Notes under the pieces: generated by a model | Databases searched by the model: none | The model's input: only the letters and a program-made list of their open reading frames with translations | What the model was told of the DNA's origin: nothing | Source of the DNA: Tieghemostelium lacteum | Taxonomy: Eukaryota | Assembly: GCA_001606155.1 (NCBI GenBank) | Contig: LODT01000035.1 | Span: 356,658-420,657 of the forward strand | DNA length: 64,000 bases | Direction of reading: 5' to 3' | In this document: positions 28,636 to 40,320 of the stretch, piece after piece | How positions within the stretch are numbered: position 1 is the first letter of the stretch | How the letters are laid out: each line of letters begins with the position of its first letter | Translations under genes and position numbers: made by a program

Positions 28636-31600
28636 TTATGGATTTAGACTGTGACTGGATTGTGAATCTCTAGATAATGATGAATTTAAAAAGGAACTGT
28701 TTTGCTTCTGAGAGTTAAAAGATTCTTGCCCACTGTTTACATATTGGAGATTTGACACTTTTGTAGTTTGTTTTATACCTGAGAGATTACCTTGATTGTA
28801 TGAATAGAAAATAGAGAGAGAAGGTATAATTTCGGTTAAAATTAGACCCAAGAAAGAGAAGACCACATTGGAAGGTTCAGCACCGACAAGAATCAATACA
28901 AATACACAATGAAGAATGAAACCAACTGAACACGCAAAAGTAATGATAAATATCTTTTGATGGTGATCAGAAGTTGAGCTTGACTCTGAGACTCTTTTAA
29001 CACGCATTGCCAAATATAGGCTACCACCCAAATAGATGAATGCAGCACCAATGACTAAACTGATAACAGCTTGAATAACTGCATATACAATACTGACAAC
29101 TCTTTGAGGTGTTGTGCTACTGACTGAAATGATAATTCTACCACCACAATCATCTTGAGGATCTTGTTCTGTGAAATGGAAAACTAAAACAATGATCATG
29201 AATAGTAAATACAGGATAATGTTAATTATCAAAACTACATAAGTTACTTGTTTCAAGAGATCTCTAGTTTTGGCTTTAGCTTTGATAATAATATACCATA
29301 ATACTACAATGATAGTGAATGATGTGAAATAGATAAAAGTTGGTAATACAACCAAGATATAGTCACCAACTGGATTATTGGATAGTGAACCAGATGGAAG
29401 AATGAAAAAGTATATAGCTCTGATAGTTATAAACAATGTAACGAATATAATAAGTAAATGAACCAATTTCAAAGGTTCTTTTAGTGTTTTTCTACGATAA
29501 AGAACTACAGCCATCTGAATGATACCCCACAGAGAGGTAATCAAAAAGATAACAGCCAATGTATAGAGTAAGCCTCTTGCAGTCTTATCAAACACTTCTT
29601 TGTTAACATCCTCCCAATTATCAAATCTATGTACTGGGAATATATTGATACTGGATTGTGAGTTGTTTGTTATGTCACCACATACATAGTTTACATCTGT
29701 CAATGTGACATTGTCTCTAATGGTTTTATGGTAGATTTCTAATTCCATAGGTACCAATTCAGTTGTATCGGTATTCTCAAGTGCAAAGTCAAGTACTGGA
29801 TAAGTTTTAGATTGTTTACTGTATTCTGATGTTTCAATAAAACATAGAGTCAGACTTTGAATACCTTGTGATGAAATTTTAATACCGTCGCTTAAAATTG
29901 TACCTATGATAGCTCCTTTGCCATTTAGGATACCATAGTTATCAGGTTTACGATAGCTAACAAATGAACTGGAAAGAGATTGAGCAGCAGTTGATTTATA
30001 CAATTGTTTACTTATTTGACTGATAAGTGCTGATGTACATGCAAATGTTATTGAATCTCTAGTGAAAATAATCTTTCCATTATTGAATTGGTACGATGAT
30101 TCTTCACCTTGACATGGCTTAGTTTCACCCAAAACCAATGCAGAAGTGGAGAAACACCCAGATCCACCATCACCAGAGCATGAACAGCTGATGGATTTCA
30201 AATTATCTTCAACTCTCTCCATTTTACATAGTGATTCAGATCGATAGAGATCGGCTATGTGAGTCTTTACAGAATCATCCAATTCTTCGTATAGGTATTG
30301 ATAGTTTGTTAGATTTTGTCTAGTTGTTGAAAATACGAATTTTGGTGACATCCATTGTGGTTTTACACTGATACCTGGGTACCAAGTTGCAGGAGTCCAC
30401 TCAAACATATTTTCCCATTGAGCAAATACATCTAATCCACAACTATTACATAGTTCTTCTGTCATTTGGTTAAATCTGAAGTTGTAAGGTAGATTAAAGT
30501 AATTGTTATCAAGAATCTTACAACCTTGTTTACTCAAGCATTCTGATTTGGATTTTGAAGGTACCCACCAATAGTATTCACTACCTTGGTCTGTACATTC
30601 TTGTTCATTCAAAGGTGCCAGGGTTATATTATAACTATCCAAAATGTATCCAGCAGCATCTAATGGTGAGAAATAGTATGGATAACATCCCAATGGTGAA
30701 TCTTTTTCCAAATCTATATTACATGTGGGTATAGGCCAATGAGTTTTCCAAATGAAATGACCTCTTACACATTTACCATGTTTCTCTGGATAGAAACTAA
30801 CTAAATCCTTTGAGAAGAAATAACTGTCTGAACATTCACCAGCTTGGTCACATTCTTCTTTACTCTGACAAAATATAGGTTCAGCAGCACAAACATTCCA
30901 ACCATCTAAACCTTGAGAGAAACATTGATCATATGGGTTGATGCTACAATTCACCCAAACAGTTGTTAAATCTGGCATGGTAACAACTAGACATTCACCC
31001 TCATTAGTAGCATTGGTATATACACAAACTTGATAATCAATATCCCAAGCCATTTGTGGTTGATTGCAATTTTCAGAGGCTATAATTTCTCTAATAATAC
31101 AAGTAGGGGCCATACCACCACATGTGTACCCACATGGTTTATCACAGTATCCAGACTGTTCACATGTAGCCTCATCAATTGTTGCATCATAGTAACCATT
31201 ATCAAATATACAAACATTTGTATTTGGGTTCTCGCAAGTAGCTTGACTTGTAATTTGGTCAAAAACAAAGCAATCAGTGATATTAGAAGAACAGTATCCA
31301 CAATAATCTGGAGCTTGTTCGCATTGGTCTTTACATTCCTGCACTGATAAATCTACATTGCAAGGAGCAGTATTACAGAATCCAATTTGATCTTCACAAA
31401 TGTCATTGTAGTTCACAGATGCTGTTACCCAGCCACCATAATTTCCATCATAGCATACATCATGTACAGTTTCACATGTCAAATCCATGCATTTTGGATA
31501 GGGGTAGCATCGATTTTCTTCTGTAAATTGGGAATAGTATTTATAAAATGTACGGTAACTCTGACCGGTGAAATATGTACAATCTTCATGTTTGAATGCT

Positions 31601-34026
31601 TCAAATACTTTATCTATAAAATCCTCTCCATTGTTGGTTGTGGTGTTCAGTTGATGTTTATAGATGATGGAGAATACATAGGGTTTAGGTAGACTTTCAA
31701 AAACACATTCCAAATAGGATCTGTCTTGCTGCTGTGCTGGAATCAGACATAATCTCGAGAAAAGGTCACATGTGTATCCATTAGTCCCACAATCAGCATC
31801 AGAATTACAAGGTAGAGATTTTAGAACGCCTTTACATTCTCTTAGAATACTAATCATTTCAATATTAGTTTGATCTGGTAAGAAACCTGGTACATCACAA
31901 TCAGAGGTGGATGATAGTGAATTTTGGTATTCATCCAAAACGGATATGGTGCATTCGGAAGATGAGCATTGATCATTTACCAAATCCTCTCTGACACCAA
32001 TAAAATCAGTTTGGTCTACTGATAGTAATCTAGGTACGCAGCAATGAAAGAATGTCAAACTACTATTGCAACATGGATCCAAATCAAATCTAGGGTCACT
32101 ATTGGAATAGGGACAAAATGTAGTAAGTTTCTCTACTGAGGTTGTATTACTATTCAATAGTGAAGAAGCTTGATTTTGACAGGATACCCATTCGTCTGTC
32201 AGTGTCAATGTATTGATTTTAAATACTACAGAGTTCAATTTAATAAAATCTGTAGTTGAGAAGAGTGTATCTTCCTCTTTGTTCAATCTTTCAGTTACGT
32301 TTAAGAAACCATCATAGTTACAAGTGAGATTTGTCAATGTGTAACCAAAGTCTCCTGAAAGTGCATTTCCATTCTGATCAACTAGTTTATAGAGAAATTG
32401 TAGTTTGGCATTGACTATTTCTGATAAATCAGCATTTACAGTTTTCTTATTACCCTGTCTGATAGATAACAAATAAGCAGCTTTATAATGATTCTTTTGG
32501 GGTTGATTGGCATTGTCTTCATAGGTTATACCATAGAATCTCTTATCTTGAGATAATATACTTGGCAGTGGCCATATTGGAAGAATCTGAGTGAATGGGT
32601 ATTCAACTGAAAATGGATTACATCTAGACCAGACATTACACCCAATACTGTCCCCAGAAGGTAAAAGCAATCTAGTAGTTTGTACTAAATTATATGCAGA
32701 TGCTTGTGGCGACCCATCTGTAATTGAAATCAATTCATTGTAACCTTGTGTTGTGATGGTAAAAGAGTAATTTGATCTGTAGAATGTAGATACACCAATA
32801 TATAATACCAATGGATCACCATTAGGAAGAGGTGATAATTTTAATGTCAAATAATCATCACGTTCATTTGAGCAATCCCATTTAGCATTACTCAATGAAT
32901 TTGGGAATGGTTTAGATGGATCATCACTAATGAAAAAATCAATATCCTCTTGAAGTGATGGAAATCCAAATGCAACAACTTGTGGTGTATTTACTGAATA
33001 GGTGTAATAATGCATCTCTTCATCAGCACCTTCACCTTGTACTAAAGATCCATCAACTACACAATCATGTGTATTTAATACTTTTGGACAACTAGTTGCA
33101 ATAGTAGAATTAGATACCTCTATAATTTTTTTATAATAAAATTATTAATAATATAACTCGATAGAATGTAACATCTAACCATTACATACCGGAAGATAAA
33201 ATTTCAAAGGAAAATTGTGCCATTGGTGATTGTGCAACAATGGTAATGAAATAAGTTGATTTAGTCCATTGTCCAGCTGAAAGAAACTCTTGATTATCAG
33301 TTGGACATATATTTAATTCAAAACTGTATGCTGTATCTGTAGAAGGTGAATTTCTTCCAAAATAAGAGAAATAAGGGTATGGAGAGACATTCATTGTTAC
33401 CTTACCTTGATTTGGTGATAATAGAACCCTGATACCTTCACATATTTCTGAATTTGCTTTATAACGTAGATTTAATACACCACTATCTTCAATTGTGAAA
33501 TCATATTTTTTATTTCTTTCAACGACCTCCCAAGTTTCATCTGGATTGCAAAAGTATAGATAGAGTTCACTGCCATCACTGGCGATATTAATCTCAGTGG
33601 GACATGGTGTACATGAACTACTATTAGAAGCTGTTATACCACATTGGTCTCCTGTTCCTGTATAATCACATGAACAATCTACAGCTTCTTGTTGGCATTC
33701 ATAGTTGGGACATGATACTGATCTGTACCTGTAAAGTTCTCGGTCAAATTCCAAATCAATTAATGCATAATTTAACTCAACACCCAGTACATTAGCTTGT
33801 TTTTCTAAAATACTACCAGATTGTAGATTAAATCCAAACACTCTTAATTCTATAATTTTTGATCACAACGTGCGTTAGTACTCTTTTTACAATGATGGTG
33901 AAAAAAATTATGTGGGGGTTGGGGGTAATTTTTAAAACCATTATTAAAGTCAAAAAATATTGTGATATTACCATTTGATAATAAATATAGTAGTAATAGT
34001 ACAAGTAGTGAGTATTTGTTTCTCAT
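28636..34026 (-). CDS. Very large (1732 aa) seven-transmembrane protein with a signal peptide and a ~1300-aa cysteine-rich ectodomain; family unknown. Exons 34026..33972, 33849..33190, 33119..28636
   Basis: Signal peptide MRNKYSLLVLLLLYLLSN. Introns are 122 nt (gtaatatc...ttatag) and 70 nt (gtatgtaatgg...ttatag), with phases consistent. The ectodomain has more than 90 Cys and many N-glycosylation sites. Seven hydrophobic helices in the last ~350 aa (LLYTLAVIFLITSLWGIIQMAVVLY ... FSFLGLILTEIIPSLSIFY), followed by a Ser-rich tail. Confidence 0.7.
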
Positions 34027-34365: not shown

Positions 34366-35557
34366 ATGAAAATTATTTATCTTGTAGTTTTATTAATATT
34401 ATGTTTTTCTCTAATTGTGGAGTCTAATGAAATTTCATCTCAGAGAAAATCAAATAAATCTAAGGAATTAAGTAAACAATCATCAGCATTCAAAAAAAAA
34501 GATTTTAAAAGAGATCAACAGGAGTTAAGTAATCTTAAAGAACTTCAACAACAACAAGAAATTGTATTCCATATTGCTGGTACTTTGGATTTACTCTATG
34601 GTATTTTTGTAGGATTTGAAGTAAGTTTATTTTTATTTTTATATCTATAAGTTCACTTATACTAAAATTATTTTAAAATAGAATGGTGTTAATTCATATG
34701 CATCAGCATCAAAATGTACAGAGGCAACTGATAAACTCTATAGTATTATTTCTTTGATGTTAGCTGATTTACAACAAGGTGAATTTCCAAAATTATCAAG
34801 CAGATTTGAAACTTTGAATTCCACATACTATGAAAATGTTGATTCACTGCTCAAATGTATTCCAGAACTATTTATAAATAGATTTGGTAAAGTTTATGAA
34901 GACTTAATTACATTAGGACCAGCCTATTTTATAAATGTTGCAAAGAATACCGTTTACAATCATAAATTAAAATCTTTTAGTATCTATAGAGGTATTAGAA
35001 GCTGTGCTTCTTCTGGTGATATTGTAGGTCTTGGTAAATATCTTGGTGATTTTATTTCACTGGCATATTATGATAGATTCCTTGTTAAGAAAACAATTCA
35101 AGAAATTCTTGAAGGTGATGTCATTGAAGATATCCTACAGCAACAAGAACAAGAAAAAGTAGAACAACAACAACAAGTACAAGTACAACAGGAACAAATA
35201 CAACAAGAACAAGTACAACAAGAACAAGTGCAACAAGAACAAGTGCAACAAGAACAAGAACAAGTACAAGAACAAGTACAAGAACAAGTACAAGAACAAG
35301 TACAACAACAAGAACAAGAACAAGTACAACAAGAGCTAGTGCAACAAGAACAAGTACAACAACAAGAACAAGAGCAAGTACAACAAGAGCAAGTACAGCA
35401 AGAACAAGTACAGCAAGAACAAGTACAACAAGAGCTAGTGCAACAAGAACAAGAACAAGTACAAGTACAACAAGAACAAGTACAACAAGCACAACTCCCA
35501 CAATCCCAAGTAGTTGAGGAGATTGTTGAGGAAAAGGAAGTAGTATCACAGCTTTAA
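34366..35557 (+). CDS. Secreted protein with a C-terminal (EQVQQ)n glutamine/glutamate-rich repeat tail. Exons 34366..34620 and 34682..35557 (376 aa)
   Basis: ATG at 34366 with signal peptide MKIIYLVVLLILCFSLIVES. Donor GFE|gtaagt, 61-nt intron, acceptor aaatag|AATGGT. About 35 hexapeptide-like EQVQQ(E) repeats encoded by an 18-bp DNA repeat (caagaacaagtacaacaa). Confidence 0.6.
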
Positions 35558-35630
35558 ATATCATGTCTTATTCTATTCAAACCTATATAGTTATAAATAA
35601 ATATTTATATTTCATTATGCATTGCGTTTA

Positions 35631-36227: not shown

Positions 36228-36332
36228 TGCACATTAGTAATAAATTCAAAAAAATAAAAATCTCTCAAAATAAAAAAAATTACATTTTGGGTGATAACAA
36301 ATTGTAATAAGAATAAGCAAGAATAAAGTTTA

Positions 36333-38136
36333 TTAACCGCAAATAGATCTACATCCATAAAAGTTCTCGGAGTAAGGAGTAATGACATGACAATCCTCAC
36401 CAGTGTGTGGACACTCAGCAACTTGATTATTTCCAATATACATAACAACCTATAGTTTTGTTGTTAAATGTTAGGTTTATATAAATAGAAAAAAAAAACA
36501 AAATATTATTTATACATACATGGTCAGGGCAGTTTGTATTTTCTTCACTGAAACAATAAAAGAAAAGATCACCAACAGTGCAACCGCTTGTTGAACTTGG
36601 ACTACATGTACCAGTGTTTACATTTGAAATTTGAGCACCTGAATATCCACTTGAGAACCAAGTTGTAGTTGGGTAATAACTTGTGGCTGAGGCAGTTGGT
36701 GCTGCTGATGATGATGCAGCTGTAGCTGAAGTTTGTCCTGATGAGTAACTACCAGTTTGTCCTGATGAATAACTTCCAGTTTGTTGACCAGATTGTGATC
36801 CAGTTTGTCCTGATGAATAGCTTCCAGTCTGTTGACCTGATTGTGATCCAGTTTGTCCTGATGAATAGCTTCCAGTTTGTTGACCTGATTGTGATGAGGT
36901 TTGACCAGTTTGTGAACCAGTCCATTGAGAGGGTCCACTGTTACCTGATTGTGATGAGGTTTGACCAGTTTGTGAACCAGTCCATTGTGATGTGGTTTGT
37001 CCAGTTTGTGAGCCAGTCCATTGGGATGGTCCGCTGTTACCTGATTGTGATGAGGTTTGACCAGTTTGTGAGCCAGTCCATTGGGATGGTCCACTGTTAC
37101 CTGATTGTGAGGTAGTTTGTGATGAACCTGTCCATTGTGATCCTGTTTGTTGACCTGTAGTTTGACCAGAGGTTTGTGAACCTGTGTGTTGAGATGATCC
37201 AGTTTGTTGACCTGTAGTTTGACCAGAGGTTTGTGATCCAGATTGGGATGATCCAGTATGTCCTGTAGTTTGAGATGATCCAGTTTGTTGACCTGATGTT
37301 TGTCCACCACTTTGAGTTGAAGAAGAGTGTGGGCCAGATGAAGATGGACCAGATGAAGATGGACCAGATGAATGTGGTCCTGAGGATGATGGGCCTGATG
37401 AATGTGGACCAGAAGTATGTGGTCCTGTAGTCTTTGATGTTGAAGATGGTCCTGATGAAGATGGTCCTGATGATGATGGGCCTGAAGAGTGTGGTCCAGT
37501 AGTTTTTGAAGTTGATGAAGATGGTCCAGAAGATGATGGTCCAGAAGATGGTCCAGAAGATGAAGAGGTTGTGCTTGAAGGTCCAGATGAAGTTGGGTTA
37601 CCACCACATGATGAACCTTGTGTATATTGTTGTGCAGCAGTTCTAAGAATTCCACTCCAACCTCCAGTATTGTAACTTGTATATACTAAACCTGAACAAT
37701 CCATTCCACCACTACCACCACATCCACATTCTATTTTTATCAATTAATTAATTAAAATACAAAATTAAAATCCAATTTAAACTATAAATAAATGTTTAAA
37801 TACTTACGTGTACCTCCCCAAACCTAATGACATTGGTTAAAAATATAAAAAAAATAATAAGTTAGTACTAAATCTAAGTGTTTTATCATATTTATTGAAA
37901 TTTACATATGGACATCCACAAGTTGCATCTAAAAATTTTTATTATTAGTATAATTTGATATTGGATTTAATGGTTAATGGCTACATACAATGATTTGCAG
38001 TTTGAGCTGCTTTTTGACATACTGACATGTCGATAGTCAGATTTTTAAATTGATTTATATTTCCACGTGGTATATTCCATCCATTTGAAATGTTAATTAA
38101 GCATACTATAGCAACAAGTAATATTACTAATTTCAT
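36333..38136 (-). CDS. Secreted NlpC/P60-family (papain-like amidase/peptidase) protein. The catalytic-Cys half and the His half of the domain are separated by a ~330-aa Ser/Gly/Thr/Gln-rich repeat insertion. Five exons: 38136..37989, 37928..37906, 37823..37808, 37730..36520, 36449..36333 (504 aa)
   Basis: Signal peptide MKLVILLVAIVCLINIS. Spliced product ...CGCPYVWGGTQCGCGGSGGMDCSGLVYTSY (the NlpC/P60 PYVWGG...DCSGLV catalytic-Cys motif is assembled across two micro-exons of 23 and 16 nt). After the low-complexity block comes GDLFFYC...H | VVMYIGNNQVAECPHTGEDCHVITP (the conserved GDLxFF....HVGIYIGNGxxIHAP His region). Introns are 58, 82, 77 and 70 nt. Confidence 0.7.
36700..37560 (-). repeat. 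Coding low-complexity tandem repeats (SGQTGSQSGQQTGSYS / GPSSSGP units) inside the NlpC/P60-like gene
   Basis: Periodic DNA repeats of ~48 bp on the coding strand (ccagtttgtcctgatgaatagcttccagt...), visible directly. They produce an artefactual 345-aa ORF in another frame (36618..37655). Confidence 0.85.
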
Positions 38137-38730: not shown

Positions 38731-40320
38731 ATGTTTAAATTCTTCTTTGATAAAAACAAAGACTCTAATAACAATAGTAATAATAATAGTAATAACAACG
38801 CTAACAATAGCAATTTGACAGAGTCAGATGGTACAGTAAAACTCAGTAATAGTATATGTTCAAGTGTACATCAAAAGAGTATCGATCTTTATTGTAAATT
38901 TTGTAACCTACCAGTGTGTTCTAAATGTTTAAAAGAACACTCTAGTCACTCTGTAAAAGTAGTAGATATTGAAGATGAATTCGCTGAATGTATGAAAGCT
39001 TCTGGCAAGATCTCTGACAATTTGAAGGAATTCATCAAGGCTAAAAACAACCAAAAAGTGGTAAACGAAGATTCTTTCAAAAAGAAAGTTGACGAGCAAT
39101 ACCATAAAGAATTAGAAAAGATTGCTAATTACTTTAGAAATATTCACGATGCTCTTCATTTCAAAGAAGTTGAACTAAAGAGAGAACTAAAATCTCACTA
39201 TGAAGACAACTTTGAAGAGTTCACAAAGATCATCTCCAAGATTGATCATGAAATTGACCACAGTAAATCATTGATCAAGACCATTGAGGAAAACAAAGGC
39301 AACTATGAACAAACTGAAGATAAATACTCATTGTTGCACAGATACATTCACAGCAAGAATCTCTTGGAAAAACAGGAACAAACTGATGAATTCAAGTATC
39401 AATCCTACAGTTTCATAGAATCTATTAACAAATTTGAGGATCTCTTGCGTTTATTGGAAATTAGAAATAATAATGCCCTCAACAAGTTTGTTTACATCTA
39501 TGGTAATGGTGCATTCGAAAGACTCAATCTCACCAAGAAAACACTTGAGAAGATTGAAATTAAAGGAGAGAAGTTCAATACCAATCATGGTATTTTCAAG
39601 GCTATGATTGCAACAAATGACTATCTCTACATTTTCAAGAGAAAGAATTTCCTCAAATACGATCCAAAGACATTTGAGTGGACAATGGGTAACACTCCAG
39701 TAGACTTTGATGGTGGTGACTGGCAATCAGTTGAATATGATGGTAAGAACCATATCTATTTGTTTGGTGGTATTCGTGATGGTGTAAACCACAGTGATGT
39801 CTCAAGATTCAACATCACAACAGAAACATTTGAACTCAGAATCGCCAAAACTCGTATTCCTATTAGATTTTCAACTCCAAGAATTGCAGGTGATGCCATT
39901 TACATTCTTGGTGGTGTAGCCTCAGAGTCACCAGATCCAATTGCCACTTTGGATAAATATGATATCAAGACTGGTCAAACTACTTTAGTCAGAAACTTTG
40001 CTCCAGATGGTTACATTGAATTGACATGTCTATGCTATGTACCAAAAAGTAATAGTCTATATATTATATCTAGAGAACATAAATTCTTTAGATATGAATT
40101 GACCACCAACACCATTCACCCATTACAACCACCTATTAAAGATGTCAAACAATATTACACTGAATTGACATTTGATGGAGACCACACAATCTATTGTATC
40201 AATAAGGATAATATCCATGAATTCAATATCAATACTCAAATATGGACTAAAATTGAAACTCCTAAATTCCATAATTTTGATCTCTATCTTTATGCAATTG
40301 CTTTCTCACCAAGATTCTAA
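38731..40320 (+). CDS. B-box zinc finger + coiled coil + C-terminal Kelch-type beta-propeller protein (TRIM-like without a RING), single exon, 529 aa
   Basis: Poly-Asn N-terminus. B-box CSSVHQKSIDLYCKFCNLPVCSKCLKEHSSH. A long helical region. The C-terminus has repeated hhhFGG motifs (HIYLFGGIRDG, AIYILGGVASES) typical of Kelch blades. Confidence 0.65.
   Translation: MFKFFFDKNKDSNNNSNNNSNNNANNSNLTESDGTVKLSNSICSSVHQKSIDLYCKFCNLPVCSKCLKEHSSHSVKVVDIEDEFAECMKASGKISDNLKEFIKAKNNQKVVNEDSFKKKVDEQYHKELEKIANYFRNIHDALHFKEVELKRELKSHYEDNFEEFTKIISKIDHEIDHSKSLIKTIEENKGNYEQTEDKYSLLHRYIHSKNLLEKQEQTDEFKYQSYSFIESINKFEDLLRLLEIRNNNALNKFVYIYGNGAFERLNLTKKTLEKIEIKGEKFNTNHGIFKAMIATNDYLYIFKRKNFLKYDPKTFEWTMGNTPVDFDGGDWQSVEYDGKNHIYLFGGIRDGVNHSDVSRFNITTETFELRIAKTRIPIRFSTPRIAGDAIYILGGVASESPDPIATLDKYDIKTGQTTLVRNFAPDGYIELTCLCYVPKSNSLYIISREHKFFRYELTTNTIHPLQPPIKDVKQYYTELTFDGDHTIYCINKDNIHEFNINTQIWTKIETPKFHNFDLYLYAIAFSPRF

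What the first reader, a model, noticed from the sequence alone, without database searches (positions are those of the whole stretch)
36333..38136. Secreted NlpC/P60-like hydrolase with the catalytic domain split by a 330-aa mucin-like repeat and assembled from micro-exons
The spliced product begins with a signal peptide and then CGCPYVWGGT-Q-CGCGGSGGMDCSGLVYTSY, which is the NlpC/P60 catalytic-cysteine signature (PYVWGG...DCSGLV). That motif is only created by joining a 23-nt and a 16-nt micro-exon to the large exon. The matching His region (GDLFFYC...HVVMYIGNNQVAECPHTGEDCHVI) lies ~370 residues downstream, after a Ser/Gly/Thr/Gln tandem-repeat block. NlpC/P60 enzymes are typically bacterial peptidoglycan endopeptidases or amidases; in a phagocytic amoeba a secreted one is a plausible bacteriolytic effector, possibly of horizontal origin. 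A large low-complexity insertion within the catalytic domain is unusual and may be a glycosylated loop or an assembly expansion.
Basis: partly seen in the sequence, partly recalled or inferred. Interest (0 to 1): 0.75.

Follow-up and report, generated by a model that had tools for sequence, protein, structure and literature searches.

The report
Amoeba cell-wall hydrolase with repeat insertion
This is a real five-exon gene of a social amoeba for a probably secreted, cysteine-rich enzyme of the NlpC/P60 bacterial-cell-wall-cutting family; relatives in other amoebae are already annotated, and its one unusual feature is a 333-residue Ser/Gly/Thr/Gln repeat in a loop that is at most 19 residues long in 180 of 181 relatives.

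Summary
On the minus strand, 38136-36333, five exons (148, 23, 16, 1211 and 117 nt) joined by four GT..AG introns (60-82 nt, 12-20% GC) give a 504-aa protein. The PYVWGG motif exists only after splicing the 23- and 16-nt micro-exons, and skipping either one gives an early stop. The product passes Pfam NLPC_P60 (42-48 bits, cutoff 23). Its residues C74, H466 and E478 align with RipA C383, H432 and E444.

It belongs to a small Cys-rich subfamily found across dictyostelids and in Vermamoeba. Its nearest bacterial relatives are actinobacterial. One dictyostelid member already appears in a published NlpC/P60 tree.

The insertion (aa 105-437) lies between two conserved cysteines in the linker between the Cys-bearing helical half and the His-bearing strand half. 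That linker is at most 19 aa in 180 relatives, 109 aa in the closest relative (T. lacteum) and 347 aa here. An AlphaFold model of the T. lacteum protein folds both halves into one NlpC/P60 domain, with the insertion disordered.

Codon-position composition says the repeat is native coding sequence. Secretion, glycosylation and peptidoglycan cleavage are inferred, not shown. Verdict: a new member of a known kind, of modest interest.

The parts
36333..38136 (-). Whole coding region (start codon to stop codon) of the 504-aa NlpC/P60 protein: five exons, four introns.
37989..38136 (-). Exon 1 (148 nt). Encodes aa 1-49 plus the first base of Y50: the signal-peptide-like N-terminus and the first helix (…VCQKAAQTANH).
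   Evidence: The ATG is the first in frame after an upstream stop.
38080..38136 (-). Predicted signal peptide, aa 1-19 (MKLVILLVAIVCLINISNG|W). K2, then a 14-residue hydrophobic core, then S at -3 and G at -1.
   Evidence: The hydropathy scan shows the only hydrophobic segment of the protein here. All nine full-length dictyostelid sequences in the alignment start with a comparable hydrophobic stretch. No signal-peptide predictor was available.
37929..37988 (-). Intron 1 (60 nt, GT..AG, 20% GC), phase 1.
37906..37928 (-). Exon 2, a 23-nt micro-exon encoding (Y)ATCGCPY.
   Evidence: It is the only CGCPY in the six-frame translation of the window.
37824..37905 (-). Intron 2 (82 nt, GT..AG, 17% GC), phase 0.
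37808..37823 (-). Exon 3, a 16-nt micro-exon encoding VWGGT(Q).
   Evidence: It is the only VWGG in the six-frame translation of the window.
37731..37807 (-). Intron 3 (77 nt, GT..AG, 12% GC), phase 1.
36520..37730 (-). Exon 4 (1211 nt). Encodes the Cys-rich hairpin CGCGGSGG, the catalytic-Cys helix, the whole insertion, the GDLFFYC strand, and ends on the catalytic His codon.
37696..37698 (-). Codon of Cys74, the catalytic nucleophile in DCSG. It aligns with RipA Cys383.
   Evidence: PDB entries of RipA mutated at C383, H432 and E444.
36607..37605 (-). Insertion, aa 105-437 (999 nt). Composition: 33% Ser, 19% Gly, 17% Thr, 14% Gln, 6% Pro. Blocks: SSGPS/SGPH(S/T)S pentamers with an STSKTTGPH higher-order unit (about 37321-37563); a GQTSGQQTG-type block (about 37145-37290); a 20-aa unit GSQTGQTSSQSGNSGPSQWT (36888-37119); a 16-aa unit GQQTGSYSSGQTGSQS x3 (36752-36895); and a non-repetitive S/A/T/Y tail.
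36520..36522 (-). Codon of His466 (catalytic His, PDH|VVMY), the last codon of exon 4. It aligns with RipA His432.
36450..36519 (-). Intron 4 (70 nt, GT..AG, 16% GC), phase 0. It sits at the same codon boundary as the last intron of the C. fasciculata homolog.
36333..36449 (-). Exon 5 (114 nt coding plus TAA), encoding VVMYIGNNQVAECPHTGEDCHVITPYSENFYGCRSICG.
   Evidence: tblastn, 74% identity to the T. lacteum C-terminus.
36414..36416 (-). Codon of Glu478, the third triad residue (12 residues after the His). It aligns with RipA Glu444.
36329..36334 (-). AATAAA overlapping the TAA stop, a possible polyadenylation signal.
   Evidence: Read directly from the sequence; not tested.

Best explanation
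The locus encodes a secretory-pathway cysteine peptidase of the NlpC/P60 (MEROPS C40) family, in a dictyostelid whose closest relative in the protein collection searched is Tieghemostelium lacteum. It belongs to a small Cys-rich subfamily found in Amoebozoa.

Shown:
- The five-exon structure gives an intact 504-aa ORF.
- The product passes the Pfam family threshold.
- Cys74, His466 and Glu478 sit at the positions of the RipA catalytic triad.
- The mature protein has 15 cysteines: the catalytic one plus 14 conserved others.
- The 333-aa insertion lies in the linker between the helical half that carries the Cys and the strand half that carries the His.
- The insertion has the codon structure of native coding DNA.
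- In the closest relative the two halves are predicted to pack into one NlpC/P60 domain, with the insertion unstructured.

Inferred:
- After signal-peptide cleavage (predicted after G19) the enzyme is delivered to phagosomes/lysosomes or the outside.
- There it cuts the stem peptide of bacterial peptidoglycan (gamma-D-Glu to diamino-acid bond), as RipA, LytE and, by my recollection, T. vaginalis NlpC do. That would help a bacterivorous amoeba digest or kill prey.
- The 14 extra cysteines form up to seven disulfides that stabilise the domain in that environment.
- The Ser/Thr/Gly/Gln/Pro repeat is a flexible, probably O-glycosylated surface loop. It grew by replication slippage or unequal exchange, as low-complexity tracts commonly do in dictyostelid proteins, and it is tolerated because it sits in a surface linker. 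It is not required for catalysis, since eight of the ten dictyostelid sequences compared lack it.
For: Gene model. Family and triad: plus the RipA mutant entries listed. Conserved cysteines and insertion site.

Subfamily distribution: dictyostelids and Vermamoeba. Only 16 of 1.84 billion representatives reach E <= 1e-30.

Fold of both halves with a disordered insertion, on the closest relative (T. lacteum): pLDDT above 90 in most 10-residue blocks of the two halves, against below 50 over most of 109-194. Foldseek hits are all NlpC/P60 hydrolases and the alignments span the insertion; TM-score normalised to the target is up to 0.84.

Insertion is native coding sequence: GC by codon position is 0.44/0.79/0.13, against 0.43/0.50/0.17 in the core. 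There is no in-frame stop. Preferred codons are the same as in the core and broadly the same as in the neighbouring genes. Introns are 12-20% GC.

Rarity of the insertion.

Eukaryotic setting.

Precedents for eukaryotic antibacterial NlpC/P60 enzymes: PMC12332128 (A. fumigatus CwhA) and PMC5586350 (mite LytFM; its tree includes the C. fasciculata member).
Against: - No transcript, proteomic or enzymatic evidence was available for this gene or any dictyostelid homolog, and I found no functional paper.
- The signal peptide was judged by simple rules only.
- NlpC/P60 enzymes also include amidases and acyltransferases, so the bond cleaved is not established.
- A 333-aa loop could hinder folding or access to the substrate.
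- The exact repeat length cannot be verified without reads.
Confidence: 0.6

Rival explanations
1. It is an active NlpC/P60 enzyme, but its role is not bacteriolysis. It would act in the amoeba's own extracellular matrix (slime sheath, stalk or spore coat) or on a non-peptidoglycan amide or ester substrate. The glycosylated repeat would tether it in that matrix.
For: The repeat composition resembles dictyostelid extracellular-matrix and spore-coat low-complexity tracts (my own knowledge). The NlpC/P60 superfamily includes non-peptidoglycan enzymes (Anantharaman and Aravind 2003, cited in PMC12332128). No functional data exist for the subfamily.
Against: The closest sequence and structure matches are all peptidoglycan endopeptidases. 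The motif set is that of the P60/RipA type. Compact paralogs without any tether are the rule. Dictyostelids have no peptidoglycan of their own and feed on bacteria.
Confidence: 0.15
2. The insertion is functional rather than a passive slippage product. For example, it could be a protease-sensitive linker that is cut to give a two-chain, disulfide-held enzyme, or a glycan 'brush' that regulates access to the active site or protects the enzyme in lysosomes.
For: An insertion is kept at exactly the same site in two species, between the same two conserved cysteines (C104 and C438). Both halves remain fully conserved. The codon bias of the insertion is as strong as that of the core.
Against: The two insertions share position but not sequence or length: S/G only in T. 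lacteum, against S/G/T/Q/P with W and Y here. That is what neutral expansion predicts. Repeat copies are 92-95% identical at the DNA level, so they are recent. Eight of the ten dictyostelid sequences compared lack it.
Confidence: 0.15
3. Part of the feature is an artefact. The repeat length could be inflated or collapsed by assembly, part of the repeat could be removed by unrecognised splicing, or the gene could be an unexpressed pseudogene.
For: Tandem repeats with 92-95% matches between copies are hard to assemble from short reads. No reads or transcripts were available. This exact protein is not in the public collection.
Against: The frame stays open for 999 nt and re-enters the conserved C-terminal half in phase. 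GC3 is 0.13 and GC2 is 0.79, a strong coding periodicity, and overall GC is about 45% against 12-20% in the real introns. Every residue invariant across the ten dictyostelid sequences, including 13 cysteines and the catalytic Cys and His, is intact, as are the near-invariant residues including Glu478. An independently assembled genome (T. lacteum) has an insertion at the same site that is annotated as coding.
Confidence: 0.08

Closest known systems
Tieghemostelium lacteum DLAC_01431 (P0001, 266 aa; named 'NlpC/P60 domain-containing protein' by UniRef)
   Same: The closest relative found: 84% and 74% identity in the two blocks tblastn aligns (aa 64-106 and the C-terminal 38 aa), and sister in the tree with 59% bootstrap. 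It has the same signal-peptide-like start, the same Cys pattern and triad, and a low-complexity insertion at exactly the same site after QGSSCGG.
   Different: Its insertion is about 97 aa and almost purely Ser/Gly. Here it is 333 aa with four distinct repeat blocks rich in Thr, Gln and Pro plus Trp/Tyr. Its gene structure could not be retrieved.
Compact dictyostelid NlpC/P60 proteins (C. fasciculata EGG24385 = P0002, A. subglobosum, D. purpureum, D. cf. discoideum, P. violaceum; 167-190 aa)
   Same: The same Cys-rich subfamily with the motif CGCPYVWGGTxCGCGGSGGMDCSG, 46-56% identity, and a shared last-intron position with C. fasciculata. The C. fasciculata member is already in a published NlpC/P60 phylogeny (PMC5586350).
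   Different: They have only 2-3 residues between the two cysteines that flank the 333-aa insertion here. The 5' intron positions differ.
Mycobacterium tuberculosis RipA/RipB (PDB 3ne0, 2xiv, 4q4g/n/t, 3pbi)
   Same: The same fold and a Cys-His-Glu triad with identical His-to-Glu spacing (12 residues). Top sequence and structure hits. In my search the nearest bacterial sequences are actinobacterial proteins of about 350 aa that share the ...EEPHTGDVCHVV motif.
   Different: RipA has an N-terminal coiled-coil/pro-domain, no Cys-rich framework, no insertion and no introns. Identity is only about 15% over the Foldseek alignments.
Trichomonas vaginalis NlpC/P60 enzymes (PDB 6biq, 6bim, 8ev4)
   Same: NlpC/P60 enzymes of a protist. 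The best structural overlap is TMt 0.84 to 8ev4. They are described as laterally acquired and antibacterial (my recollection of Pinheiro et al. 2018; not read here).
   Different: A different NlpC/P60 subgroup, 14-16% identity. They carry bacterial SH3 domains in the A-type (from memory) and have no Cys-rich framework and no insertion.
Aspergillus fumigatus CwhA and house-dust-mite LytFM
   Same: Secreted eukaryotic PF00877 enzymes. CwhA has demonstrated lytic activity (PMC12332128) and LytFM is a reported bacteriolytic enzyme (PMC5586350). Both are placed with actinomycete sequences in the tree that also contains the C. fasciculata protein.
   Different: CwhA has an SH3b domain. Neither is reported to have an insertion inside the catalytic domain. 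I did not have their sequences to compare directly.

Membership tests
NlpC/P60 (Pfam PF00877; MEROPS C40) | Score above the curated Pfam gathering threshold | tested here: met
   42.4 bits for the full protein (two stretches) and 48.0 bits with the repeat removed (one stretch, profile positions 1-87 of 105); cutoff 23.
NlpC/P60 (Pfam PF00877; MEROPS C40) | Catalytic Cys at the start of a helix, in the D-C-S-G context after the PYxWGG motif | tested here: met
   PYVWGG...GMDCSGLV. C74 is invariant in 42 aligned sequences and aligns with the Cys of 3h41, LytE and RipA. Helix 74-84 in the model of the T. lacteum relative.
NlpC/P60 (Pfam PF00877; MEROPS C40) | Catalytic His on a beta-strand (HVxxYxG) | tested here: met
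   H466 in PDHVVMYIG is invariant and aligns with the RipA His mutated in entry 4q4n.
NlpC/P60 (Pfam PF00877; MEROPS C40) | Third polar triad residue (His/Glu/Gln/Asn) on the next strand | tested here: met
   E478 is 12 residues after the His, the same spacing as RipA H432/E444. It is nearly invariant (Gln in D. cf. discoideum).
NlpC/P60 (Pfam PF00877; MEROPS C40) | Papain-like alpha+beta fold that brings the Cys helix and the His strand together | tested here: inconclusive
   Met for the closest relative, T. lacteum, which has an insertion at the same site: confident model and exclusively NlpC/P60 structural matches that span the insertion. The window protein itself could not be modelled. No coordinates were returned, so the Cys-His distance was not measured.
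NlpC/P60 (Pfam PF00877; MEROPS C40) | Hydrolysis of peptidoglycan stem peptides | not testable with these tools
   Needs a recombinant enzyme and a muropeptide analysis.
Amoebozoan Cys-rich NlpC/P60 subfamily (defined here from the hits) | CGCPYVWGG(T/S)xC(G/S)CGGxGG(M/L/F)DCSG motif and the conserved non-catalytic cysteines | tested here: met
   The window protein keeps all 13 invariant and 2 near-invariant cysteines of the ten-sequence dictyostelid alignment. The clade has 100% bootstrap. Only 16 representatives reach E <= 1e-30.
Amoebozoan Cys-rich NlpC/P60 subfamily (defined here from the hits) | N-terminal signal peptide (entry into the secretory pathway) | tested here: inconclusive
   A single N-terminal hydrophobic segment with S at -3 and G at -1. 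No other hydrophobic stretch and no hydrophobic C-terminus. No dedicated predictor and no experiment.
Mucin-like domain | Ser/Thr/Pro-rich tandem repeats carrying dense O-glycosylation | tested here: inconclusive
   The tandem repeats and 49.5% Ser+Thr are confirmed, but Pro is only 6% and Gly+Gln make up 32%. Glycosylation is not testable here.

The most novel reading that the evidence does not exclude
The insertion is a selected module rather than tolerated slippage. It would be a heavily O-glycosylated loop, anchored at its base by the two conserved cysteines, that either tethers the enzyme in the amoeba's glycocalyx or slime sheath, or is clipped to give a two-chain, disulfide-linked hydrolase. 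Either would be a new way of building a catalytic domain around a mucin-like loop.
Probability: 0.12. Interest if true: 0.55.

Novelty: new member of a known kind. Interest (0 to 1): 0.3.

Why it matters
Bacterivorous amoebae must break peptidoglycan, yet apparently nobody has studied the enzymology of this amoebozoan Cys-rich NlpC/P60 subfamily. The family is therefore a reasonable candidate set for how dictyostelids digest or kill bacteria. It also fits the pattern of eukaryotes using bacterial-type cell-wall hydrolases, alongside the Trichomonas, mite and Aspergillus cases.

This gene adds two things. First, it is a natural experiment showing that the linker between the Cys half and the His half of the fold can hold a 333-residue disordered loop. 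Second, it shows how gene finders can miss a catalytic motif split over 23- and 16-nt exons. Neither point changes what is known about the family.

Tried and rejected
I used the T. lacteum relative instead.
- The T. lacteum genomic locus is not on record. Its intron positions, synteny and dN/dS could therefore not be obtained.
- The exact window proteins (this one and two neighbours) are not in the protein collection.
- Literature queries: 'NlpC/P60' is an invalid term, and the phrase 'nlpc p60' with 'Dictyostelium' gave 0 papers. 'NlpC' with 'Dictyostelium' gave 22 papers, and only PMC5586350 mentions a dictyostelid member, in a tree legend.
- The first bootstrap tree timed out and was redone with a faster distance routine.
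- The first loop-length measurement was mis-registered by hmmalign --trim. It was discarded and redone.
- A weak tblastn hit at 33608-33790 (E 0.001) lies inside the neighbouring large Cys-rich gene and is not a paralog.
- Recent horizontal transfer or contamination is rejected. The gene has four spliceosomal introns, one intron position is shared with C. fasciculata, GC3 is 0.13-0.17, and the neighbours are eukaryotic.
- The repeat being a hidden intron is rejected, because of its composition and codon periodicity.
Full report
**1. What is in the sequence**

Five exons of 148, 23, 16, 1211 and 117 nt are joined by four GT..AG introns. The introns are 60, 82, 77 and 70 nt long and 12-20% GC, against 28-56% GC for the exons. 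Together the exons give one open frame of 504 codons plus TAA. The ATG is the first in frame after an upstream stop. An AATAAA overlaps the stop codon.

**2. Are the micro-exons real?**

- In a six-frame translation of all 64 kb, the peptides CGCPY and VWGG(T) each occur exactly once. They fall at 37920 and 37823, on the right strand and in the right order, between exon 1 and exon 4.
- PYVWGG never occurs as contiguous DNA, so the motif exists only after splicing.
- Skipping exon 2, exon 3 or both, or retaining intron 1, gives a stop by codon 50-72.
- The spliced sequence HYATCGCPYVWGGTQCGCGGSGGMDCSG matches, residue for residue, the positions that are invariant or nearly so in ten dictyostelid sequences: Y50, C53, G54, C55, P56, Y57, G60, G61, C64, C66.
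- I reconstructed the annotated gene structures of four homologs with a search that had to reproduce each protein exactly. D. cf. discoideum has a 17-nt micro-exon, (C)PYVWG, inside the same motif.
- The last intron of C. fasciculata is at the identical codon boundary and phase as intron 4 here (PDH|VVMY, phase 0). The D. cf. discoideum and P. violaceum introns lie one codon to either side.
- The 5' intron positions are not conserved between species.
- No cDNA was available, so the exon model rests on comparative evidence, which is strong.

**3. What the protein is**

- Pfam NLPC_P60 (PF00877) is hit at 42.4 bits for the whole protein, in two stretches. With the repeat removed it is hit at 48.0 bits in a single stretch covering profile positions 1-87 of 105. 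The cutoff is 23.
- Sequence searches of the PDB find NlpC/P60 peptidoglycan hydrolases: 3h41, LytE, RipA/RipB, SagA, MepS/Spr and T. vaginalis NlpC. The only exception is one cutinase at E 0.5 in the single-sequence search.
- In the profile alignment to RipA, DCSG aligns with DCSG, and DHVVMYIGGGKVAEC aligns with QHVTIYLGNGQMLEA.
- In the window protein this gives Cys74, His466 and Glu478 (His+12). These are the positions mutated in the RipA entries C383, H432 and E444 (titles).
- The third triad residue is therefore Glu, as in RipA.

**4. Secretion**

Residues 1-19 (M-K-LVILLVAIVCLINI-SNG) form the only hydrophobic segment of the protein. Small residues sit at -3 and -1, and there is no hydrophobic C-terminus. 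All nine full-length dictyostelid sequences in the alignment start the same way.

The mature protein has 15 cysteines, the catalytic one plus 14 others. Thirteen cysteines (including the catalytic one) are invariant and two are nearly so across the ten dictyostelid sequences. That fits a disulfide-rich protein of the secretory pathway. This is inference; no predictor or experiment was available.

**5. The insertion**

It runs from residue 105 to 437 (window 37605-36607), between invariant C104 and near-invariant C438. Compact relatives have only 2-3 residues there, for example C-GS-C.

Composition: 33% Ser, 19% Gly, 17% Thr, 14% Gln and 6% Pro, with no acidic residues and only two Lys.

It is built of distinct tandem blocks:
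- SSGPS/SGPHS pentamers with a 24-aa higher-order unit.
- A GQTSGQQTG-type block.
- A 20-aa unit, GSQTGQTSSQSGNSGPSQWT (60- and 96-nt periods, 92% matches).
- A 16-aa unit, GQQTGSYSSGQTGSQS, x3 (48-nt period, 95% matches).
- A non-repetitive S/A/T/Y tail.

It behaves as native coding DNA:
- GC by codon position is 0.44/0.79/0.13, against 0.43/0.50/0.17 in the catalytic core.
- There is no stop in frame 0.
- The preferred codons (CAA, TCA, CCA, GGT/GGA, ACT) are those of the core, and broadly those of neighbouring genes.
- The true introns are 12-20% GC.

**6. Is an insertion there unusual?**

I aligned the window protein and 181 relatives to the subfamily profile. The relatives were the first-search hits plus the best 150 of a profile search of 1.84 billion representatives. 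I then counted the residues between the G of 'QG' and the G of 'GDL'. The count is at most 19 in 180 sequences, 109 in T. lacteum and 347 here. The D. purpureum paralog that groups with these two has 19, with a short G/S run (CGGGSSGNS).

So the insertion is restricted to one lineage. It sits at a site that already carried a short Gly/Ser run, and it has expanded to different lengths and sequences in two species. That is the signature of repeat slippage in a permissive loop.

**7. Can the two halves fold together?**

I modelled the T. lacteum relative with a 41-sequence alignment instead.

- pLDDT is above 90 in most 10-residue blocks of residues 31-100 and 201-266, and below 50 over most of 109-194.
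- The order of secondary-structure elements is helix, Cys-rich hairpin, catalytic helix, short helix, [insertion], then five strands.
- Foldseek against the PDB returns only NlpC/P60 peptidoglycan hydrolases among the matches listed, with alignments of 218-254 columns that bridge the insertion. TM-score normalised to the target is up to 0.84 (8ev4), and 0.74-0.78 for the C. innocuum and C. difficile domains.

The insertion therefore sits in the connection between the helical lobe that carries the Cys and the beta lobe that carries the His and Glu. I could not obtain coordinates to measure the Cys-His distance.

**8. Relatives and origin**

- The first search found 41 proteins. They include compact (142-190 aa) members in C. 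fasciculata, A. subglobosum, D. purpureum (three), D. cf. discoideum and P. violaceum (two).
- T. lacteum DLAC_01431 is the closest: 84% and 74% identity in the two blocks tblastn aligns.
- About 18 metagenome or transcriptome proteins of 239-351 aa carry the same Cys-rich motif, many with about 190 extra N-terminal residues that match no Pfam family.
- One cluster of that longer form contains a Vermamoeba vermiformis transcript from EukProt. The subfamily is therefore wider within Amoebozoa.
- Bacterial hits begin only around E 1e-5. The one that is named is from Amycolatopsis, and these proteins are about 350 aa and share ...EEPHTGDVCHVV.
- In a neighbour-joining tree of 135 columns, the 24-sequence Cys-rich clade has 100% bootstrap. 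The window protein pairs with T. lacteum at 59%. Resolution inside the clade is poor.
- Only 16 of 1.84 billion representatives reach E <= 1e-30, against 27,164 at E <= 0.001.

If the family came from bacteria, the transfer predates the dictyostelid radiation. This gene shows no sign of recent transfer.

**9. Setting and host**

- There is no second copy in the window.
- The neighbours are ordinary eukaryotic genes. They include a large Cys-rich multi-pass membrane protein (28636-33841, minus strand), a Gln/Glu/Val-repeat ORF, and a B-box/Kelch-type protein (38731-40320) transcribed divergently.
- The best hits of the B-box/Kelch protein are all T. lacteum, at only 40% identity.
- Three exact look-ups failed.

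The host is therefore a dictyostelid whose closest relative in the collection is T. lacteum, but it is not T. lacteum.

**10. What is already known**

The C. fasciculata member (EGG24385, on GL883007, the contig record from which L001 was taken) appears in the phylogeny of mite LytFM homologs. That tree groups mite, ascomycete and actinomycete sequences (PMC5586350).

I found no paper on the function of the dictyostelid proteins.

**11. Verdict**

The most likely mechanism is a secreted or phagosomal Cys-His-Glu peptidoglycan endopeptidase used against bacterial prey. It would carry a flexible, probably glycosylated repeat loop that is tolerated rather than required.

Family membership is about 0.95 likely. 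The bacteriolytic role is about 0.55-0.6 likely and is untested.

The gene is a new member of a known, annotated family. Its one distinctive feature, the size of the insertion, has a smaller counterpart in the closest relative found, and it fits the well-known abundance of simple repeats in dictyostelid proteins. Interest is modest.

Noticed in passing
P0008, P0011, P0018, P0042, P0043 (metagenome/transcriptome proteins; the P0008 cluster includes EukProt Vermamoeba vermiformis P007335): A longer form of the same Cys-rich NlpC/P60 domain carries about 190 extra N-terminal residues. In the five scanned, these match no Pfam family at E <= 0.01. It is a possible uncharacterised accessory or pro-domain in non-dictyostelid amoebae.
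   Followed up: partly
L003:3265-3281 (D. cf. discoideum homolog P0006): An annotated 17-nt micro-exon encodes (C)PYVWG. It lies in the same motif as the window's micro-exons but at different boundaries. Introns seem to have been gained or moved repeatedly within this 40-nt stretch of the family.
   Followed up: partly
window 34754-35557 (+) with an antisense ORF at 35121-35564 (-): An ORF with a long (Q-Q-E-Q-V)n-type repeat. The opposite strand reads as a Leu/Val repeat ORF, which is probably an artefact of the repeat.
   Followed up: no
window 28636-33841 (-): Two long ORFs on the same strand (1459 and 219 aa), which I took to be one gene. They encode a large Cys-rich extracellular region followed by several hydrophobic segments, so the product looks receptor-like. 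It produced a chance tblastn hit to P0002 at 33608-33790.
   Followed up: no
window 38731-40320 (+): A single-exon 529-aa ORF. Its hits carry Kelch and related Pfam domains, and two are named 'B box-type domain-containing'. All four hits are T. lacteum proteins, the best at only 40% identity, which suggests a fast-evolving expanded family in that lineage.
   Followed up: partly
window 36333-38136 versus 38731-40317: The NlpC/P60 gene has much lower third-position GC (0.13-0.17) than the neighbouring B-box/Kelch-type ORF (0.32). This may reflect codon bias linked to expression level.
   Followed up: no
P0017 (Logan contig, 294 aa): The profile matches this homolog in two stretches. It has an odd hydrophobic segment (FLFCVTISNIDFDFLCMCSLLNDVLFCIFS) just before CGCPYVWGG. 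That is probably an unspliced intron in the gene call, at the same motif region where the window gene has its micro-exons.
   Followed up: no
P0046 (641 aa; contigs up to 720 kb): A protein with two PF00877 stretches (184 bits in total) scored 1e-37 against the amoebozoan profile. I did not examine its origin or whether it carries the Cys-rich motif.
   Followed up: no
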